Assembly (NCBI GenBank): GCA_964452525.1
Contig: CAYVLZ010000001.1
Coordinates: 65,742-129,741 of the forward strand
DNA from: Candidatus Woesearchaeota archaeon
GTDB lineage: Archaea > Nanobdellota > Nanobdellia > SCGC-AAA011-G17 > CAYFGV01
Length of the DNA: 64,000 nt
Direction: 5' to 3'
The notes under the pieces are model-generated. The model saw only the letters and a list, made by a program, of their open reading frames with translations. It was not told where the DNA came from and did no database searches. This document shows, in pieces, positions 9,089 to 64,000 of the stretch (its first letter is position 1; the number at the start of each line of letters is the position of its first letter). A program made the translations under genes and the position numbers.

Positions 9089-9124
9089 TGGAAAGTTTTT
9101 TAAGACATTAAAGTTTAATTATTT

Positions 9125-9385
9125 TGTAGGCTAGACTGGGCTGGTAGCCGTAGCTTGTAACCGTAAATCGGCTTTATGACGGGGTTGAAGTCTGGTGAGG
9201 TTCAAGATTTAGTTAGTGGTCTTGGTCCGTACGTTGATCCTTTGTCCTGTAGGGTCGGTAGTTTTGAGAATCTAGTCAGGATGGGAACATAGCAGCTATA
9301 ATCATTACTACTGGCGCTTATGGGGTAACAAGGGGGAGGAAAGATCAAGGTTAAGCCATTGGCTAGATCTTGTATCGAATCCAGG
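9125..9385 (+). ncRNA. Putative signal recognition particle RNA (7S/SRP RNA)
   Basis: GC-rich ~260-nt island in an AT-rich intergenic region. Contains GUCAGGAUGGGAACAUAGCAGC, resembling the conserved SRP RNA helix-8 motif GUCAGGCCGGAAGGGAGCAGC. 5' hairpin GGCUAGACUGGGCUGGUAGCC. Boundaries approximate. Confidence 0.5.
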
Positions 9386-9390
9386 CATGC

Positions 9391-9870
9391 CTACTTCATT
9401 ATTTCACTTCTAATTTCTAAGATTATGTCACCAAGATTTTGAGCTATTGTAGAATACATTTTTTGTATTATTACTTGATACATGGTTTCTTTTAATGGAC
9501 CTGAGCAATATTCAATGTTCTCCGAAGTTTTTGATATCATATCGAATGTTATTTCTTCTTTCGGTATTTTACAGTCCATGTCTTTTCCGAGAAATATATC
9601 TGTTTCAGGAGACGAATCTTTGATGTCAACTATTTTTACATTTATAACACATCTATCTCCTTCAGAACCTTTTACAGTATAAAGGAATGTTGTTTCGTTA
9701 TTCTCAATTAAAACTCTGGCTTTATTACATTTGCTTGCAGCTTTATTGAAACAGAGTTTATCGTCGTTACAGTTTTTTTCATAACCGATATAGAAAACTA
9801 CAAAAATAATGAAAAGCATTACCAAGATAGGTATTGCTTTATTTGAAGACCTCTTTTTTGGTTTTTTCAT
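9391..9870 (-). CDS. Membrane-anchored hypothetical protein
   Basis: N-terminal basic stretch plus TM helix (IPILVMLFIIFVVFYIGY); Cys-containing ectodomain. Confidence 0.45.
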   Translation of the reverse strand: MKKPKKRSSNKAIPILVMLFIIFVVFYIGYEKNCNDDKLCFNKAASKCNKARVLIENNETTFLYTVKGSEGDRCVINVKIVDIKDSSPETDIFLGKDMDCKIPKEEITFDMISKTSENIEYCSGPLKETMYQVIIQKMYSTIAQNLGDIILEIRSEIMK

Positions 9871-40730: not shown

Positions 40731-40737
40731 TTTTAGA

Positions 40738-40834
40738 TGCGGGAGACAGGGTTCGAACCTGCGTAGGCACTAAGCCATTGGGTTTCTTATTATTATCCTA
40801 AGCCCAACCCGTTTGACCACTCCGGCACTCCCGC
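40738..40834 (-). tRNA. tRNA-Leu (anticodon TAG) with a 13-nt canonical-position intron
   Basis: Minus strand. GCGGGAG-UG-CCG..CGG-G-UUGGG-CUUAGG[AUAAUAAUAAGAA]A-CCCAA plus a long variable arm UGGCUUAGUGCCUA and T-arm GCAGG-UUCGAAC-CCUGU. Confidence 0.8.
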
Positions 40835-40923
40835 ATGAAAAAAGTTTATTTAGTATATTTAAAAAAGTTTCGAGTTTAATAACAATTAAATTTATTAATC
40901 TCTACTTTCAAGTAATATGAAAA

Positions 40924-56734: not shown

Positions 56735-56813
56735 ATTTTTTTAAATGATTATAATTTTAAATATGTTTCTATTAGAAAGTTTTAAATATCAACTTTTGAT
56801 TTAATTTTTTACT

Positions 56814-56915
56814 GGGCCCGTGGCTTAGCCTGGTTAAAGCGCTGGTCTTATATGACGGTTAAGCTAACAGCTCTAAGAGAGCCAGAGATCGCCAGTTCAA
56901 ATCTGGCCGGGCCCA
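56814..56915 (+). tRNA. tRNA-Ile (anticodon TAT) with ~27-nt canonical-position intron
   Basis: GGGCCCG-UG-GCUU-AGCCUGGUUA-AAGC-G-CUGGU-CUUAUA[intron]A-GCCAG-AGAUC-GCCAG-UUCAAAU-CUGGC-CGGGCCC-A; mature loop CUUAUAA. Followed by T5. Confidence 0.65.
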
Positions 56916-56925
56916 TTTTTCTAAA

Positions 56926-57750: not shown

Positions 57751-57881
57751 GCTCCTGTAGTCTAGTCCGGCCAAGGATGCAGTTGCTTTGCAGCAGAACC
57801 CTTTCGAGTAAGCTTTTTAGGAAAAGCTTAACCAAAAATCGAAGAAAGGCTGAGACCCGGGTTCAAATCCCGGCAGGAGCA
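57751..57881 (+). tRNA. tRNA-Glu (anticodon TTC) with two intervening segments (about 16 nt before and about 40 nt after the anticodon loop)
   Basis: Acceptor GCUCCUG/CAGGAGC+A. D-loop AGUCCGGCCAAGGAU and T-arm GACCCGGGUUCAAAUCCCGG are characteristic of archaeal tRNA-Glu. Loop CUUUCGA at 57801-57807. The anticodon stem CAGUU/GGCUG forms only after removing 57785-57800 and 57808-57847. Confidence 0.55.
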
Positions 57882-59157: not shown

Positions 59158-59775
59158 TAAGCTTTATATATAAGTCTGCTTCTTAAATCGTTACCTCATG
59201 AGGGAGATAGTGTTTTTATCTTCTAATAAATTTTCTTTGAGGGTAATTTATGAATACTTGATGTTTTATTAAGTATGATGTACAGACCTAGTAAGATAGT
59301 AGAGTTTCCTGCTAACTTTTTTTGCGATCACAATAATTCCCGTTGATCCTGCGGGAGGTTGCTGCTATTCGGATTCGACTTAGCCATGCAAGTCAGGGAG
59401 CTTCGGCTGCCGGCGTAAGGCTCAGTAACACGTAGTTAACTTACCCTTAGATCCAGGATAACCTCTGGGAAACTGAGGATAATACTGGATAAGGAATTGT
59501 TGCTGGAAGGCACTTTTCCTCAAAAGTAATGTCTAAGGATAGGACTGCGGCTGATTAGATTGTTGGTGAGGTAATGGCTCACCAAGTCTGGGATCAGTAG
59601 GGGGGATGAGAGTCCTAGCCCCGAGAAGGGCACTGAGAAACTGGCCCTAGTCCTAAGGGATGCAGCAGGCGCGAAACCTTTACAATGCACGAAAGTGTGA
59701 TAAGGGGATCCGAAGTGCTTTGCCTTTGGTAAAGCTTTTGTCAAGTGTAAATAGCTTGAAGAATAAGGAGTGGGT

Positions 59776-59809
<34 letters not shown>

Positions 59810-60192
59810 CTCCAAGTGGCAACCGTTTTTATTGGGTCTAAAGCGTCCGTAGCCGGTTTAGCAAATCTTTTGTGAAATTGTTCTGCTTAACAGAACAGCG
59901 TGCAAGAGACACTGTTGAACTTGGAACCGGGAGGGGATAGAAGTATTCTTTGGGGAGCGGTAAAATGCTATAATCCTTGGAAGACTACCTATGGCGAAGG
60001 CATCTATCCAGAACGGGTTCGACGGTGAGGGACGAAGGCTGGGGGAGCGAACAGGATTAGATACCCTGGTAGTCCCAGCAGTAAACGCTGCGAGCTGGGT
60101 GACGCGTGTTCTTCGAGGACATGCGGTGCCTAAGTGAAGACGTTAAGCTCGCCACCTGGGAAGTATGATCGCAAGATTGAAACTTAAAGGAA

Positions 60193-60828
60193 AGAGACTA
60201 AGAAGAAAACTATAAAAGGAATAAGATCCACTAATTACTATGGATAACAGTAAACTTTGTTATATATTGGGAGCATTGAGAGATTCAAGCATCGACATCA
60301 GGAAAGGGAAAAATTACGAGTTAAAGTTCAGTCAAAAGGATGAAAGATGGTTGTTTTATATATCTGACTTAATCTATTGTCTTTTTGGTGAGAGATTTAA
60401 TGTAAGAAATAATATGTTGAGGATTACCAACAAAAACATTGTATTAGAGATTCAAAATGTTTCAGAAATGGTTTCTCCACAAAAGTATTGGAAGACACCA
60501 TCTTTTGTTTTTAAGTTAGATGTTCTGGATTTAATTCCTTATATTCAAGGTTTCTGGGATGCTGAAGGTGGTTTACCTAGAAAACCTTTGATTGCTAAAC
60601 AGAAATATTTGTCTTTTGATCAGAAAAACAAACAATGTTTGTTTTTCTTGAGAACAAAATTGCTAAAGTTGGGATATAGACCAACAAACCTGACTTTTAC
60701 TAACCATGTTTGGCAATTTCGATTGACAAGAAAAAATGATATAATAAGTTATATTCAAAATATAGGTTCTTCACATCCCGAGAAATCTTCTCGAATGTTA
60801 AAAATGATTTCTTCTTTGTCTCCCTGAT
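60193..60828 (+). other. 16S rRNA intron 1 (~636 nt) inserted after AAAGGAA (E. coli ~position 908-915)
   Basis: Universal AAACUUAAAGGAAUUGGCGGGGGAGCAC is split at GGAA|UUGG by a 636-nt insert carrying a LAGLIDADG ORF. Confidence 0.75.
60240..60827 (+). CDS. LAGLIDADG homing endonuclease (16S intron-encoded)
   Basis: Two LAGLIDADG-type motifs: LCYILGALRDSS and YIQGFWDAEGG. The stop codon abuts the 3' splice site. Confidence 0.8.
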   Translation: MDNSKLCYILGALRDSSIDIRKGKNYELKFSQKDERWLFYISDLIYCLFGERFNVRNNMLRITNKNIVLEIQNVSEMVSPQKYWKTPSFVFKLDVLDLIPYIQGFWDAEGGLPRKPLIAKQKYLSFDQKNKQCLFFLRTKLLKLGYRPTNLTFTNHVWQFRLTRKNDIISYIQNIGSSHPEKSSRMLKMISSLSP

Positions 60829-61112
60829 TTGGCGGGGGCTCACCACAAGGAGTGGAGCGTGCGGTTTAATTGGATTCTACACCGGAAATCTCACCAGGAG
60901 CGATGGCAGGATGAAGGTCAGATTGAAGGTCTTACCTAACAGGCCAAGAGGAGGTGCATGGCCGCCGTCAGTTCGTGCCGTGAGGTATCATGCTAAGCCA
61001 TGCAACGAACGAGACCCATGCCTGTATTTGCTAACAGGTTTTTATGACTGAGCACAATACAGGGACCGCCTTCGAAAGGAGGAGGAAGGTGTGGGCAACG
61101 GTAGGTCAGTAT

Positions 61113-61173
61113 ACGCTGGAGCTTTCCTATTCATTCCAATGAATTGTGTGCTTATGTTAGCTTAGCGGCTAAA
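61113..61173 (+). other. 16S rRNA intron 2 (~61 nt, no ORF) between GGUAGGUCAGUAU and GCCCCGAAUCUCCUGGGCUACACGCG
   Basis: The conserved ~1210 region is interrupted by ACGCUGGAGCUUUCCUAUUCAUUCCAAUGAAUUGUGUGCUUAUGUUAGCUUAGCGGCUAAA. Boundaries ±3 nt. Confidence 0.5.
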
Positions 61174-61540
61174 GCCCCGAATCTCCTGGGCTACACGCGC
61201 GCAACAATGGTAAGGACAATGGGTCGCAACTCCGAAAGGAGAAGCCAATCCTCGAAACCTTGCCCTAGTTCGGATTGAGGACTGTAACTTGTTCTCATGA
61301 CGCTGGAATTCCTAGTAATCGGGTTTCATTATGGCCCGGTGAACATGTCCCTGAGCCTTGCACACACTGCCCGTCAAATCAACCGAGCAGGGTCTAGGTG
61401 AGGATTAATTTTTTGGTTAATTCGAACCTAGGTTCAGTAAGGTGGGTTAAGTCGTCACAAGGTAACCGTAGGGGAACCTGCTGTTGGATCACCTCCTTTT
61501 ATTTTTGAAGCTTTACTATACTAGAAGGTCTGTACTTTAT

Positions 61541-61711
61541 GGGCCCGTAGCTCAGTGGTAGAGCATCGCCCTTGCAAGAAACTTTTTGAGAAAGTTTCAT
61601 CAAAAATATCAAAAATAAGAACAAGAAAGGCGGGGGCCTCGGGTTCGAAAATAAGGATTGTATCCTTATCAACCTGCTTTTTAGTGAGTGTCGAGAGTCC
61701 CGACGGGTCCA
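61541..61711 (+). tRNA. tRNA-Ala (anticodon TGC) in the 16S-23S spacer, with a ~50-nt canonical intron and a second ~47-nt insertion in the T-loop
   Basis: GGGCCCG-UA-GCUC-AGUGGUA-GAGC-A-UCGCC-CUUGCA[intron]A-GGCGG-GGGCC-UCGGG-UUCGAA[insert]-CCCGA-CGGGUCC-A. Confidence 0.65.
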
Positions 61712-62327
61712 TACAAACTTTTTAAGAAAAAGTTTGATTAAAAAGTGAAAAAGTTTGAAAACTTTAAAACTTTGTTAGATATCATGTTTTTCATTTTTAA
61801 TAATGCAGCTCGATAATGAATATTTCGGGTGAAGAGCTTTAATATTTATTGAAGCTATGCATAGGCTATACTTCCCACGCCATTAGATGGATGACTTGGC
61901 TCAGAATGACGATGAAGAGCGTGGCAAGCTGCGATAAGCTTTGGGAAGGCGCATGCAGCCTTTGAACCAAAGATCCTTGAATGAGACTTCTTGTCTCTTT
62001 GAGACGATCAGTAGTGATCGGTGACGCGGTGAATTGAAGCGTCTTAGTAACCGCAGGAAAAGAAATCAAATGAGATGCCGTTATTATCAGCGAGAGAAAG
62101 CGGTATAAGACAAACCGAATTCTTATTAGAGATAATAAGAACATGTGGTGTTGTAGGACTTACTTTTAATCTTACTGGATGACTTAAAGTTCTCTGGAAA
62201 GAGATGCCTTAGAAGGTGACAGCCCTGTAGAGGAAGTCCAGAAGATGTGTAAGTATCCTGAGTAGGGCTCATTGGTTATTGAGTCTGAATTTGGGAGACA
62301 TTAACTTCCAATCTTAAATACATTCTG

Positions 62328-62360
<33 letters not shown>

Positions 62361-63010
62361 TTGAAAAGAACCCTTAACAGGGAGTTAAAAGATCCTGAAA
62401 TCTAATGGTAATGGTGTGATACTGCTCTTCGGAGTTGTATCGTGCGTTTTGAATAACGCGCCAGGGAGTGTATTTAAGTGGCGAAAGTAAATCTTTTGGA
62501 TGTACTTGAAAGGAAACTGAATGCTCGCAAGTAATGAGGAGCAGGGTATTAATGTGCCTTAAGTCACTTGGATACGACCCGAAACCAGGTGATCTAACCC
62601 TGAGCAAGGTGAAGCAATAGCGATATTGTGGAGGCCTGAAGAGGTGCTGTGGTAAAAGCGTTCTTCTGACTTGGGGTTAGGGGTGAAAAGCCAATCGAAC
62701 CTGGTGATAGCTGGTTCCTGTCGAAGTGGGCCGTAGTCCAGTCTCGAGCGAGATTGTTAGTATTGTAGAGCTACGGATTAGAAATTTAGGGGAAGAAATT
62801 CCTCGGTTTCTCGTCCAACTCCAAATGTGCTAATGTCATAGACCTCGGGAGACGGGGGTAGGCGGTAAGCGTCTATTCCGAGAGGGGAACAACCCTAACT
62901 GTAGTTAAGGTCCCAAAATACTGGTTAAGTGTTAAAGGGTGAAAGGTGTATATCTTCATAGACAGCGGGGAGGTAGGCTTAGAAGCAGCCATCCTTTAAA
63001 GAAAGCGTAA

Positions 63011-63679
63011 GTTGTTTACTAGCGATAACTTTATATAATCAGATGACTTAGAATACTATGCAGCTCACCTGTGATTTAGCTTATTTGCTTGGAGCTTTGA
63101 GAGACGGAACAGTCACAAGATATAAAGAAAAGAATAAAACACATAGTCATGTGACGTTCTATAGTAAAGACATTGAATGGTTAACATATCTACAGAAACT
63201 GTTTAATAAAGTTTTTCAAGAGGAGCTAAAAGTGAATAAGCCCAAAGGTGGTACAGCATATATACGAAAGTATTCTAAGGAACTCGTTAATCTTTTAGAA
63301 AAAAGATTTCAACATCCTGTTGGGAAACAGATAAAGTGGGAAACTCCAGATTCTTTGTTAAAATCTAGTAACAAAAAAATTTGGGCAAGTTATATTTCAG
63401 GTTTCTTCGATGCAGAAGGAGGGACAATTCCAGGAAGACAAATTATTTTTTACTTGTCAGGGGATGGAGAAAGATGCCCAGTTTTAGAAGACATTAAGAA
63501 GAAATTAAAAAGTATGTTTGACATTGATAGCGGAAAGGTAAGAGGATATGAAAATAAAAATGGAGTTTATCCTAGATTCTGTTTAAGGATAGCGAGTAAG
63601 AGAAGTAGAGCTTTATTTTGTGAGCATATAAAGCTTCATAATCCTAGTAAGATAATTAGGCTAGTAAACAGCCGCTAGA
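63011..63679 (+). other. 23S rRNA intron (~669 nt) inserted in the conserved GCGUAA|UAGCUCAC helix region (E. coli ~1090)
   Basis: Conserved sequence is split; flanking duplicated AGCUCACCUGU segments (intron 5' region and exon 2) are consistent with a BHB intron. Confidence 0.7.
63058..63678 (+). CDS. LAGLIDADG homing endonuclease (23S intron-encoded)
   Basis: LAYLLGALRDGTV and YISGFFDAEGG motifs. Clearly paralogous to the 16S intron ORF. The stop codon abuts the 3' splice site. Confidence 0.8.
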   Translation: MQLTCDLAYLLGALRDGTVTRYKEKNKTHSHVTFYSKDIEWLTYLQKLFNKVFQEELKVNKPKGGTAYIRKYSKELVNLLEKRFQHPVGKQIKWETPDSLLKSSNKKIWASYISGFFDAEGGTIPGRQIIFYLSGDGERCPVLEDIKKKLKSMFDIDSGKVRGYENKNGVYPRFCLRIASKRSRALFCEHIKLHNPSKIIRLVNSR

Positions 63680-64000
63680 TAGCTCACCTGTCAAGAGGTT
63701 ATGCCCTGAAGATGGACGGGGCTAAATCAGTTACCGATACTACAGACTAGCTAAGGCTAAGTGGTAGACAGGCGTTCTGCTTGACTAGAAGCTATTTCGT
63801 GAGAGGTAGTGGATCGAGTAGAAATGAGAATCCTGGTAGTAGTAGGAGCTAAACAGAGTGAGAATCTCTGATACCGTAAGGGCAAGGGTTTCTTAGCACT
63901 GCAGTTCAGCTAAGAGTAAGTTGATCCTAACTTGATTCATAAATTGACGTCGAGGAAAGGGAAAAAGGTTAAGATTCCTTTACTAATTGGATACTTATGG

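What the first reader, a model, noticed from the sequence alone, without database searches (positions are those of the whole stretch)
60193..60828. 16S rRNA intron carrying a LAGLIDADG homing endonuclease gene
The universal AAACUUAAAGGAAUUGGCGGGGG segment is split by a 636-nt insert. The insert encodes a 195-aa protein with two LAGLIDADG-like motifs, and its stop codon abuts the 3' splice site. This is a protein-coding rRNA intron of the archaeal BHB type and a mobile element inside an essential gene.
Basis: partly seen in the sequence, partly recalled or inferred. Interest (0 to 1): 0.6.

Follow-up and report, generated by a model that had tools for sequence, protein, structure and literature searches.

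The report
Homing-endonuclease intron in archaeal 16S rRNA
The 16S rRNA gene of this low-GC, probably DPANN archaeon is interrupted at a known archaeal intron site (E. coli position 919) by a 636-nt intron that carries an intact LAGLIDADG homing-endonuclease gene; this is a real but ordinary example of a well-known kind of selfish mobile element.

Summary
An archaeal 16S rRNA gene lies at 59336-61497. Its conserved AAACUUAAAGGAA|UUGGCGGGGG segment is split by a 636-nt, 30.5% GC insert at 60193-60828. Related 16S genes with the same lineage-specific flank are uninterrupted.

The insert holds a 195-aa ORF (60240-60827) whose stop codon ends 1 nt before the 3' junction. The protein scores below Pfam's cut-off alone. 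A profile of its homologues, a pLDDT 96.8 model and Foldseek (PI-PfuI, I-DmoI, I-Tsp061I) show a two-domain LAGLIDADG fold with both catalytic acidic residues invariant.

The junctions form a bulge-helix-bulge-like structure:
- an AAA 5' bulge;
- a central helix of 3 Watson-Crick pairs plus one A·G mismatch;
- a roughly 14-bp intron helix;
- a weak exon-exon helix.

Twenty-six homologous introns from at least seven archaeal lineages sit at the identical site. They support the helices by compensatory changes, including exon A/G matched by intron U/C. No group I or II signal was found.

Locus 919 is already catalogued for Thermoproteales, Desulfurococcales and Aigarchaeota. This is therefore a new member of a known kind. 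Splicing and DNA cleavage are inferred, not shown.

The parts
59336..60192 (+). 16S rRNA exon 1 (ends ...AAACUUAAAGGAA; about E. coli position 919)
   Evidence: Rfam RF01959 full-length match. Contiguous alignment to intron-less relatives.
60193..60828 (+). 636-nt intron (30.5% GC against 50.4% in the exons)
   Evidence: Boundaries are set by the conserved spliced product GGAA|UUGG and by the junction structure.
60184..60186 (+). Outer (exon-exon) helix, 5' strand UUA. It pairs with UGG at 60830-60832 as A-U, U·G, U·G. The helix is weak and made of invariant exon bases.
   Evidence: helix 1: 98.8% paired but it never varies, so it is uninformative.
60187..60190 (+). Central helix H, 5' strand AAGG (exon). 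G60190-C60823, G60189-C60824 and A60188-U60825 are Watson-Crick pairs. A60187·G60826 is a mismatch.
   Evidence: the column 10-53 pair is AU in 15 and GC in 12 sequences with none unpaired; 11-52 is GC in 26 and AU in 1; 12-51 is GC in 27; 9-54 is unpaired in 24 of 27. RNAfold finds the AGG/CCU pairing.
60191..60193 (+). 5' three-nucleotide bulge A A | A. The inferred 5' cut is between 60192 and 60193.
   Evidence: The flanking pairs G60190-C60823 and G60194-C60822 are adjacent on the 3' strand. AAA is conserved in 26 of the 27 junctions; the third base is U in L007.
60194..60208 (+). Intron (inner) helix, 5' strand GAGACUAAGAAGAAA. It pairs with 60808-60822 in 14 pairs around one U·U mismatch.
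   Evidence: RNAfold on the junction constructs and on the full intron. All 14 pairs show changes on both sides across homologues.
60225..60229 (+). GAUCC, a possible Shine-Dalgarno-like element 10 nt upstream of the AUG. It is complementary to the GGAUC in the 16S 3' end (GGAUCACCUCC, window 61485-61495).
   Evidence: Read from the sequence only. Inference, not tested.
60240..60827 (+). ORF of 195 aa: a two-domain LAGLIDADG homing endonuclease. Motif 1 is LGALRD (D15); motif 2 is GFWDAEGG (E109). The last codons (S-P-stop) are encoded by the 3' strands of the inner and central helices.
60808..60822 (+). Intron (inner) helix, 3' strand UUUCUUCUUUGUCUC.
60823..60826 (+). Central helix H, 3' strand CCUG (intron). 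It overlaps the Pro codon and the first two bases of the UGA stop.
60827..60829 (+). 3' bulge A U | U. The inferred 3' cut is between 60828 and 60829.
   Evidence: Geometry: 4 positions from the 5' bulge, with the cut after the second bulge nucleotide. This yields the conserved GGAAUUGG product. Inference.
60829..61497 (+). 16S rRNA exon 2 (starts UUGGCGGGGGCUCAC). It is itself interrupted by a second, 61-nt non-coding insert at 61113-61173.

Best explanation
This is an archaeal, protein-spliced (bulge-helix-bulge type) rRNA intron at 16S locus 919. It carries an apparently intact double-motif LAGLIDADG homing-endonuclease gene.

Inferred mechanism, step by step:
1. The intron is transcribed as part of the pre-rRNA.
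2. Its two ends pair with each other (a roughly 14-bp intron helix). The last exon-1 bases AAGG pair with the intron's 3' CCUG. This presents an AAA bulge at the 5' junction and an A-U-U bulge at the 3' junction.
3. The host tRNA-splicing endonuclease cuts after the second nucleotide of each bulge (60192|60193 and 60828|60829).
4. An RtcB-type ligase joins the exons to restore ...AAAGGAAUUGGCGGGGG... and probably circularises the intron.
5. The 195-aa protein is translated from the intron or the precursor RNA.
6. As a monomer, it would cut the roughly 20-bp intron-less 16S rDNA site that spans the insertion point.
7. Repair from an intron-containing copy then copies the intron in (homing).

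The target is one of the most conserved stretches of archaeal 16S. That fits the presence of the same intron and endonuclease family at the same site in many archaeal phyla.

Shown here: the insert, its absence from relatives, the protein fold, the conserved catalytic residues, junction helices with covariation, and the absence of ribozyme signatures.

Inferred: cleavage and ligation by host enzymes, the exact cut positions, circularisation, translation, and DNA-cleavage activity.
For: - Insert and gene: full-length archaeal SSU match with 636 extra nt at GGAA|UUGG.
- Intron-less alleles: 54 contigs with the same lineage-specific flank, the best 84-86% identical and contiguous over the junction.
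- ORF not chance: 200 open codons against a maximum of 136 in 5000 shuffles of a 30.5% GC sequence.
- Protein family: 54 homologues, most with precomputed PF14528. In the alignment of 38 of these sequences, D15 and E109 are invariant in LGALRD and GFWDAEGG.
- Protein fold: the profile hits PI-PfuI 1dq3 at 4e-8 with the DAEG motifs aligned, and also I-Tsp061I and I-Vdi141I. The AF2 model has pLDDT 96.8 and a twofold alpha-beta-beta-alpha-beta-beta-alpha topology. Foldseek's top hits are PI-PfuI, I-DmoI and I-Tsp061I, probability 1.00.
- Same site elsewhere: all 26 close homologues examined (40-63% identity) lie in 615-748-nt inserts at the identical 16S position. Hosts include Woesearchaeota, Aenigmatarchaeota, Micrarchaeota, Nanoarchaeia, Aigarchaeota/Caldarchaeum, Hermod- and Freyarchaeota, and Pyrobaculum WP30.
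- Junction structure: 80.8% of cells paired against 66.4% shuffled, and a covariation score of 0.439 against 0.185, with 0 of 500 shuffles reaching either. All slid registers score lower. The exon A/G polymorphism is matched by intron U/C (15 AU, 12 GC, 0 unpaired).
- No ribozyme: no group I or II hit at E<=10.
- Literature: locus 919 is a catalogued BHB-intron site with homing-endonuclease-coding introns (PMC4496867). BHB introns occur beside group I introns in archaeal rRNA host genes, in a set that includes DPANN lineages (PMC6125680).
- Same operon: a second endonuclease intron in the 23S gene has a canonical 4-bp central helix. There is also a small 16S intron and a doubly interrupted tRNA-Ala, so the host evidently processes many BHB introns.
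Against: - The motif is not a strict hBHBh'. The fourth central pair is A·G here and unpaired in 24 of 27 homologues. The exon-exon helix is only A-U, U·G, U·G and invariant, so it is untestable by covariation.
- There is no RNA evidence for splicing or circles.
- The host's splicing endonuclease type is unknown, and its gene was not sought in the window.
- The single sequence falls below Pfam's cut-off (18.3 against 22.5 bits) and finds nothing in the PDB by itself.
- Endonuclease activity is not demonstrated. Fixed homing-endonuclease genes often decay.
- The nearest intron-less relatives are only 84-86% identical, so recent mobility in this lineage is not shown.
Confidence: 0.85

Rival explanations
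1. It is a BHB intron, but the endonuclease is no longer an active DNase. It would be a fixed, vertically inherited passenger, a decaying gene, or a protein retained for another role such as a maturase or RNA chaperone. The element would then be immobile in this lineage.
For: - Pfam score below cut-off for this sequence.
- The homing cycle predicts decay after fixation (PMC4496867).
- Some homologous loci do carry broken or truncated ORFs, such as L027 with a stop after 93 aa and L006 and L018 with late ATGs.
- The nearest intron-less relatives are only 84-86% identical.
Against: - The ORF is full length and aligns end to end with homologues.
- Both catalytic acidic residues and 13 columns are invariant across 38 sequences at a mean column identity of 41%.
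- The model is very confident.
- The open frame stands out in a 30.5% GC background.
Confidence: 0.2
2. It is a self-splicing group I (or group II) intron carrying a LAGLIDADG gene, like those found in DPANN rRNA genes, rather than a protein-spliced BHB intron.
For: Group I introns with LAGLIDADG ORFs occur in Woesearchaeota, Pacearchaeota and Micrarchaeota rRNA genes (PMC6125680).
Against: - No Intron_gpI or group II match in 60150-60870 even at E<=10 with permissive filters, and none at gathering threshold in the window.
- Only 47 + 1 nt of the insert are non-coding, which leaves no room for a P3-P9 core.
- Site 919 is not among the archaeal group I sites listed there (LSU 1923, 1931, 2593; SSU 1498).
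- The junctions show the BHB-type bulge and helices with covariation.
Confidence: 0.02
3. The insert is not spliced with ligation. It is either retained as an expansion segment in mature 16S rRNA, or excised without ligation to give a fragmented 16S rRNA.
For: There are no RNA data. The 3' side of the BHB is imperfect.
Against: - The site lies between the central pseudoknot and helix 28, in the functional core of the small subunit (established rRNA structure). A 636-nt, 30.5% GC coding insert there is unlikely to be tolerated.
- Relatives lack it.
- Introns at this locus are treated as excised BHB introns in Thermoproteales (PMC4496867).
- The junction helices are maintained by compensatory change, which implies selection on the RNA structure used for excision.
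Confidence: 0.05

Closest known systems
16S rRNA locus-919 introns of Thermoproteales, Desulfurococcales and Aigarchaeota (Jay & Inskeep 2015, PMC4496867), for example in Pyrobaculum sp. WP30 and Caldarchaeum subterraneum
   Same: - Identical insertion point, GGAA|UUGGCGG (L020 Pyrobaculum WP30, L007 Caldarchaeum).
- Homologous endonuclease, 41-49% identical.
- Same junction architecture: AAA or AAU bulge, GG/CC core and a long intron helix.
- Similar size, 615-748 nt.
   Different: - The host is a 33% GC archaeon whose nearest named intron-bearing relative is a groundwater Woesearchaeota MAG, so probably a mesophilic DPANN lineage.
- The intron is 30.5% GC, not GC-rich.
- The 2015 survey stated that 16S introns were confined to Crenarchaeota and Aigarchaeota.
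I-DmoI (Desulfurococcus mobilis 23S rRNA intron) and I-Tsp061I (PDB 2dch, deposited as an 'archaeal intron-encoded homing endonuclease')
   Same: - Monomeric two-domain LAGLIDADG fold of about 190-200 aa, encoded in an archaeal rRNA intron.
- Foldseek probability 1.00, TM about 0.66-0.73.
- Motif 1 ends in D and motif 2 in E, as in I-DmoI D21/E117 (my recollection of the I-DmoI literature).
   Different: - Only 16-23% sequence identity.
- I-DmoI targets a different rDNA site (23S).
- No biochemical data exist for this protein.
PI-PfuI endonuclease domain (PDB 1dq3, Pyrococcus furiosus intein)
   Same: It is the best sequence-profile hit (4e-8) and the best fold hit. GFWDAEGG aligns with PI-PfuI GLFDAEGH.
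   Different: PI-PfuI is embedded in an intein within a protein-coding gene. This one is a free-standing ORF in an RNA intron with no splicing domain.
Group I introns with LAGLIDADG genes in archaeal rRNA genes (Nawrocki et al. 2018, PMC6125680)
   Same: Same host groups, the same kind of host gene, and the same endonuclease superfamily.
   Different: There is no ribozyme core here. Excision must depend on host proteins, and the insertion site is different.

Membership tests
Archaeal BHB (splicing-endonuclease-dependent) rRNA intron | An intervening sequence interrupts a conserved rRNA segment and is absent from homologous genes | tested here: met
   636 nt lie between GGAA and UUGGCGG. 54 uninterrupted relatives were found, and the best align contiguously.
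Archaeal BHB (splicing-endonuclease-dependent) rRNA intron | A 3-nt bulge at the 5' junction is flanked by a central helix and an intron-intron helix, both maintained in homologues | tested here: met
   The AAA bulge is at 60191-93. The GG/CC plus A-U central pairs and the first 5 inner pairs are almost always paired (1 exception among 216 cells) and show compensatory changes. Observed values exceed all 500 shuffles and all slid registers.
Archaeal BHB (splicing-endonuclease-dependent) rRNA intron | Strict hBHBh' geometry: 4 Watson-Crick pairs between two 3-nt bulges, plus a stable exon-exon helix | tested here: not met
   The fourth central pair is A·G here and unpaired in 24 of 27 homologues. 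The outer helix is only A-U, U·G, U·G. It is therefore a relaxed BHB. From general knowledge, relaxed motifs are common in archaea with broad-specificity endonucleases.
Archaeal BHB (splicing-endonuclease-dependent) rRNA intron | No self-splicing ribozyme core | tested here: met
   No group I or II match at E<=10. 588 of 636 nt are ORF.
Archaeal BHB (splicing-endonuclease-dependent) rRNA intron | Cut by the tRNA-splicing endonuclease, exons ligated by RtcB, intron released (often circular) | not testable with these tools
   Needs RNA-seq or RT-PCR and enzyme assays.
Archaeal BHB (splicing-endonuclease-dependent) rRNA intron | Occupies one of the recurrent archaeal 16S intron loci | tested here: met
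   The site is the same as in Pyrobaculum WP30 and Caldarchaeum. Locus 919 is listed in PMC4496867. The E. coli numbering is derived from my knowledge of the 907-926 primer region.
LAGLIDADG homing endonuclease (two-motif monomer; Pfam LAGLIDADG_3, PF14528) | Pfam family score above the gathering threshold | tested here: not met
   18.3 bits against a 22.5 cut-off, C-terminal domain only. However, most of the 54 homologues carry precomputed PF14528.
LAGLIDADG homing endonuclease (two-motif monomer; Pfam LAGLIDADG_3, PF14528) | Two LAGLIDADG helices, each ending in a catalytic acidic residue | tested here: met
   LGALRD (D15) and GFWDAEGG (E109) are both invariant in 38 sequences. E109 aligns with the E of PI-PfuI's DAEG motif.
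LAGLIDADG homing endonuclease (two-motif monomer; Pfam LAGLIDADG_3, PF14528) | Pseudo-symmetric fold of two alpha-beta-beta-alpha-beta-beta-alpha units | tested here: met
   AF2 gives pLDDT 96.8 and pTM 0.92, with the secondary-structure order as expected. Foldseek hits PI-PfuI, I-DmoI, I-Tsp061I, I-AniI and others.
LAGLIDADG homing endonuclease (two-motif monomer; Pfam LAGLIDADG_3, PF14528) | Site-specific double-strand cleavage of the intron-less allele | not testable with these tools
   Requires expression of the protein and a cleavage assay.
Group I intron | Conserved P3-P9 catalytic core detectable by covariance model | tested here: not met
   No RF00028 hit in the insert at E<=10, nor in the window at gathering threshold.

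The most novel reading that the evidence does not exclude
One homing-endonuclease and intron lineage, tied to 16S site 919, is shared at 40-63% protein identity by DPANN phyla (Woese-, Aenigmat-, Micrarchaeota, Nanoarchaeia), Asgard archaea (Hermod-, Freyarchaeota), Aigarchaeota and Pyrobaculum. Relatives lacking the intron sit in between. This may reflect repeated inter-phylum transfer of protein-spliced introns, possibly helped by the cell-to-cell contact of DPANN episymbionts with their hosts. The systematically imperfect 3' half of the BHB would then imply that all these hosts have broad-specificity splicing endonucleases. A side aspect is that several homologous ORFs lack a stop codon inside the intron, which hints at translation from the precursor or from circular RNA.
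Probability: 0.25. Interest if true: 0.4.

Novelty: new member of a known kind. Interest (0 to 1): 0.22.

Why it matters
- Practical. The intron splits the target of widely used 'universal' archaeal 16S primers and probes in the 906-934 region (PMC4496867). Organisms like this one are therefore missed or mis-sized in amplicon surveys, and rRNA annotation pipelines can mis-call the gene.
- Biological. It adds a low-GC, probably DPANN host to the range of the locus-919 intron family. The same operon carries a second small 16S intron, a 23S endonuclease intron and a doubly interrupted tRNA-Ala, so this genome is heavily colonised by BHB introns.
- Applied. The endonuclease is a candidate meganuclease with a roughly 20-bp target in a universally conserved rDNA segment.

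None of this changes current understanding of archaeal introns.

Tried and rejected
1. Searching the single sequence against PDB sequences gave only noise. A profile of homologues was needed.
3. cmscan on the truncated stretch placed a 651-nt insertion about 15 nt upstream and left AAACUUAAAGGAA unaligned. I treat this as an alignment artefact of a large insert. The boundaries were fixed by motif search and by comparison with intron-less relatives.
4. An alternative register with a 3-bp central helix and a GAU 3' bulge was rejected. Symmetric cuts would then give GGAAUUUGG or change the conserved A919, whereas the 4-position register reproduces GGAAUUGG exactly.
5. I tested whether circularisation generally creates the stop codon in homologues whose ORF lacks a stop codon inside the intron. 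Only one of the eight loci examined (L017, U|AG) fits, so the idea was dropped as a general rule.
6. The group I or II hypothesis was rejected.
7. I did not test host-versus-endonuclease phylogenetic congruence or dN/dS, because divergence is too high for reliable synonymous rates. I also did not screen the window's proteins for the splicing endonuclease or RtcB.

Full report
**1. The observation**

Rfam's archaeal SSU model matches window 59336-61497 from model position 1 to 1478 at 1209 bits. The match spans 2162 nt, about 680 more than the model.

Direct reading and motif search place AAACTTAAAGGAA at 60180-60192 and TTGGCGGGGG at 60829-60838. Exactly 636 nt (60193-60828) therefore separate two halves of a segment that is continuous in the archaeal consensus.

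The insert holds one long ORF, 60240-60827, of 195 aa. Its TGA stop (60825-60827) ends one nucleotide before the 3' junction.

The insert is 30.5% GC, the exons are 50.4%, and the whole window is 33%. In 5000 shuffles of the insert the longest open frame averaged 49 codons and never exceeded 136, against 200 observed.

**2. Is it an insertion relative to real relatives?**

I searched public metagenome contigs for the spliced junction with the lineage-specific 3' flank (GCAAGRYTGAAACTTAAAGGAATTGGCGGGGGCTCAC). This found 54 contigs.

BLAST of the window's spliced 16S against them shows the best are 84-86% identical. They align without a gap across the junction, for example L131 with query 3-1141 contiguous. 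Intron-less alleles therefore exist in the same broad lineage.

The same comparison shows that all relatives lack window 61113-61173. That is a second, 61-nt non-coding insert (see section 8).

**3. The protein**

On its own the sequence is weak evidence. Pfam LAGLIDADG_3 gives 18.3 bits, below the 22.5 cut-off, for the C-terminal half only. A single-sequence search of PDB sequences finds nothing meaningful.

The family behind it is clear:
- 54 homologues were found at E<=1e-9, most carrying precomputed PF14528. Some are annotated from Woesearchaeota and Aenigmarchaeota MAGs.
- In an alignment of 38 sequences, A12, R14 and D15 of LGALRD and F105, D107, E109 and G111 of GFWDAEGG are invariant.
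- A profile of that alignment hits the intein endonuclease PI-PfuI (1dq3, 4e-8) with GFWDAEGG aligned to GLFDAEGH. It also hits the archaeal intron endonucleases I-Tsp061I (2dch) and I-Vdi141I (3e54).
- AlphaFold2 with this alignment gives pLDDT 96.8 and pTM 0.92, with two alpha-beta-beta-alpha-beta-beta-alpha units.
- Foldseek's top PDB hits are PI-PfuI, I-DmoI (many entries, TM about 0.66-0.73) and I-Tsp061I, all at probability 1.00.

The would-refute condition 'the ORF lacks the LAGLIDADG fold' is not fulfilled. Activity as a DNase is not shown. It is inferred from the intact frame and the conserved D and E residues.

**4. The same intron elsewhere**

I obtained genomic contexts for 26 close homologues (40-63% identity) through the look-up of encoding contigs and a scan of GTDB representative genomes. 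All of them place the ORF inside an archaeal 16S gene, in inserts of 615-748 nt at precisely GGAA|...|UUGGCGG.

The hosts are annotated as:
- Woesearchaeota, Aenigmatarchaeota, Micrarchaeota, Nanoarchaeia and Norongarragalinales;
- Aigarchaeota / Caldarchaeum subterraneum;
- Hermodarchaeum and Freyarchaeota (Asgard);
- Pyrobaculum sp. WP30.

More distant relatives (below about 33% identity) are not at this site.

**5. The junction structure**

RNAfold of the junction constructs and of the whole intron pairs GAGAC.AAGAAGAAA (60194-60208) with UUUCUUCUU.GUCUC (60808-60822). In the short construct it also pairs AGG (60188-60190) with CCU (60823-60825), leaving AAA (60191-60193) as a bulge.

I laid this on the canonical BHB geometry. 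In that geometry each bulge lies 3' of its central-helix strand, with the cut after the second bulge nucleotide; this is my understanding of the tRNA BHB. The result is:
- central helix AAGG/CCUG;
- 5' bulge A A|A;
- 3' bulge A U|U;
- outer helix A-U, U·G, U·G.

The implied cuts, 60192|60193 and 60828|60829, are exactly those needed to regenerate GGAAUUGG.

I tested this on an ungapped alignment of 27 junctions (A2) with the count of structure pairs:
- 80.8% of cells are paired, against 66.4 +/- 1.2 in shuffles.
- The covariation score is 0.439, against 0.185.
- No shuffle out of 500 reaches the observed value on any of the five measures.
- Every register slid by +/-1 to 3 columns scores much lower.

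The most telling pair is exon position A/G (AAAGG versus AAGGG hosts), matched by intron U/C. It is AU in 15 sequences and GC in 12, with none unpaired. The single AAGAG host has the matching CUC.

The fourth central pair is unpaired in 24 of 27 sequences. The outer helix never varies, so it is uninformative. This is therefore a BHB that is well defined on the intron side and relaxed on the exon-exon side, not a strict hBHBh'.

The ORF's last codons (Ser/Phe-Pro-stop) are encoded by the 3' strands of the inner and central helices. In 14 of the 27 junctions examined (13 of the 26 homologues, plus this window) a TGA stop ends 1 nt before the junction, as here. In 3 a TAA ends exactly at it.

**6. 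The rivals**

- *Group I or II intron.* Group I introns with LAGLIDADG genes do occur in DPANN rRNA genes (PMC6125680). Here, however, no ribozyme model matches even at E<=10. Only 48 nt are non-coding, and site 919 is not among the archaeal group I sites listed there.
- *Retention as an expansion segment, or excision without ligation.* This cannot be excluded without RNA data. It is disfavoured by the location in the ribosome's functional core, by the intron-less relatives, and by selection on the junction helices.
- *An inactive endonuclease.* The most realistic caveat is that the endonuclease may no longer be active. Some homologous loci do show decayed ORFs.

**7. Comparison with what is known**

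Jay & Inskeep (PMC4496867) list 13 archaeal 16S intron loci. These include 919, found in Pyrobaculum, Thermoproteus, Caldivirga, Vulcanisaeta, Caldiarchaeum and Desulfurococcales, with 6 endonuclease-coding examples. All are reported to have BHB motifs, and the introns interrupt universal primers in the 906-934 region. At that time 16S introns were thought to be restricted to Crenarchaeota and Aigarchaeota.

Nawrocki et al. later showed BHB and group I introns together in archaeal rRNA host genes, in a survey that included DPANN lineages.

The present element is thus a new member, in a new host lineage, of a known intron and endonuclease family at a known site. The mechanism (endonuclease plus RtcB splicing, LAGLIDADG-driven homing) is textbook for this class and is inferred here by homology.

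**8. Context noticed**

The operon is intron-rich.
- A 61-nt insert sits at about E. coli position 1205 of the 16S gene.
- A 669-nt 23S intron carries a second LAGLIDADG ORF of 206 aa. It scores 32 bits on Pfam and is 29% identical to the 16S one. Its junction folds into a perfect 4-bp central helix with a UAA bulge and a 13-bp intron helix.
- A tRNA-Ala(UGC) in the spacer appears to carry two introns.
- Three further tRNAs are over-length.

**Verdict**

The element is real but ordinary: a new member of a known kind, with interest of about 0.2.

Noticed in passing
window 61113-61173 (+): A second, 61-nt non-coding insert in the same 16S gene. It lies between GGUCAGUAU and GCCCCGAAUC, at about E. 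coli position 1205, a catalogued locus for small hairpin introns. Every intron-less relative compared lacks it. No BHB analysis was done.
   Followed up: partly
window 63010-63679 (+); ORF 63058-63678: The 23S rRNA gene is split between AGCGUAA and UAGCUCAC by a roughly 669-nt intron. Its 206-aa LAGLIDADG ORF scores 32 bits on Pfam LAGLIDADG_3 and is 29% identical to the 16S-intron protein. The stop codon again ends 1 nt before the junction. The junction folds into a perfect 4-bp central helix, AGCG(63004-07)/CGCU(63673-76), with a UAA bulge and a 13-bp intron helix (z = -4.1).
   Followed up: partly
window 63062-63072 and 63681-63691 (+): An exact 11-nt direct repeat, AGCTCACCTGT. One copy is at the start of the 23S-intron ORF; the other begins one base into 23S exon 2 (which starts at 63680). 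About 0.02 matches to this 11-mer are expected by chance in the whole window, and none of 100 shuffles had two or more. The meaning is unknown: a target-site remnant, a gene-conversion scar, or chance.
   Followed up: no
window 61540-61712 (+), 16S-23S spacer: A tRNA-Ala(UGC) with the G3·U70 pair appears to be interrupted twice. One insert of about 50 nt follows the anticodon loop (CUUGCAA|G...), and a second of about 50 nt lies in the T-loop (GGUUCGAA|...|UCCCGA). Rfam at gathering threshold and ARAGORN both missed it. It was spliced by eye only.
   Followed up: partly
window 40736-40835 (-), 56813-56916 (+), 57751-57881 (+): Three over-length tRNA genes (97-131 nt in Rfam). aragorn -i calls them intron-containing: Leu-UAA, 'Ile-UAU' and Gln-UUG. 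The aragorn -i calls at 35101-35734 look dubious.
   Followed up: no
loci L002, L005, L008, L012, L013, L014, L017, L018, L019, L023 (5' flank of the site-919 intron): In these homologous 16S genes the sequence just upstream of ACUUAAAGG is not the conserved GAUUGAA. This implies a second intron only about 8-11 nt upstream, around locus 908. The two BHB structures would then share or compete for exon nucleotides.
   Followed up: no
loci L008, L012, L014, L017, L018, L019, L020: In these homologues the endonuclease ORF has no stop codon inside the intron and reads 3-95 nt into 16S exon 2. In L017, circularisation of the intron would create an in-frame UAG exactly at the junction (U|AG); the others do not fit that pattern.
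   Followed up: partly
loci L041-L084: More distant relatives of this endonuclease family (23-31% identity) occur in many Patescibacteria/CPR MAGs (Saccharibacteria, Paceibacterota, Parcubacteria and others) and in two 'Gammaproteobacteria' MAGs. Their genomic context was not examined.
   Followed up: no
window 9124-9396 (+): An archaeal SRP RNA (Rfam RF01857, 137.7 bits). This agrees with an archaeal origin for the whole window.
   Followed up: no
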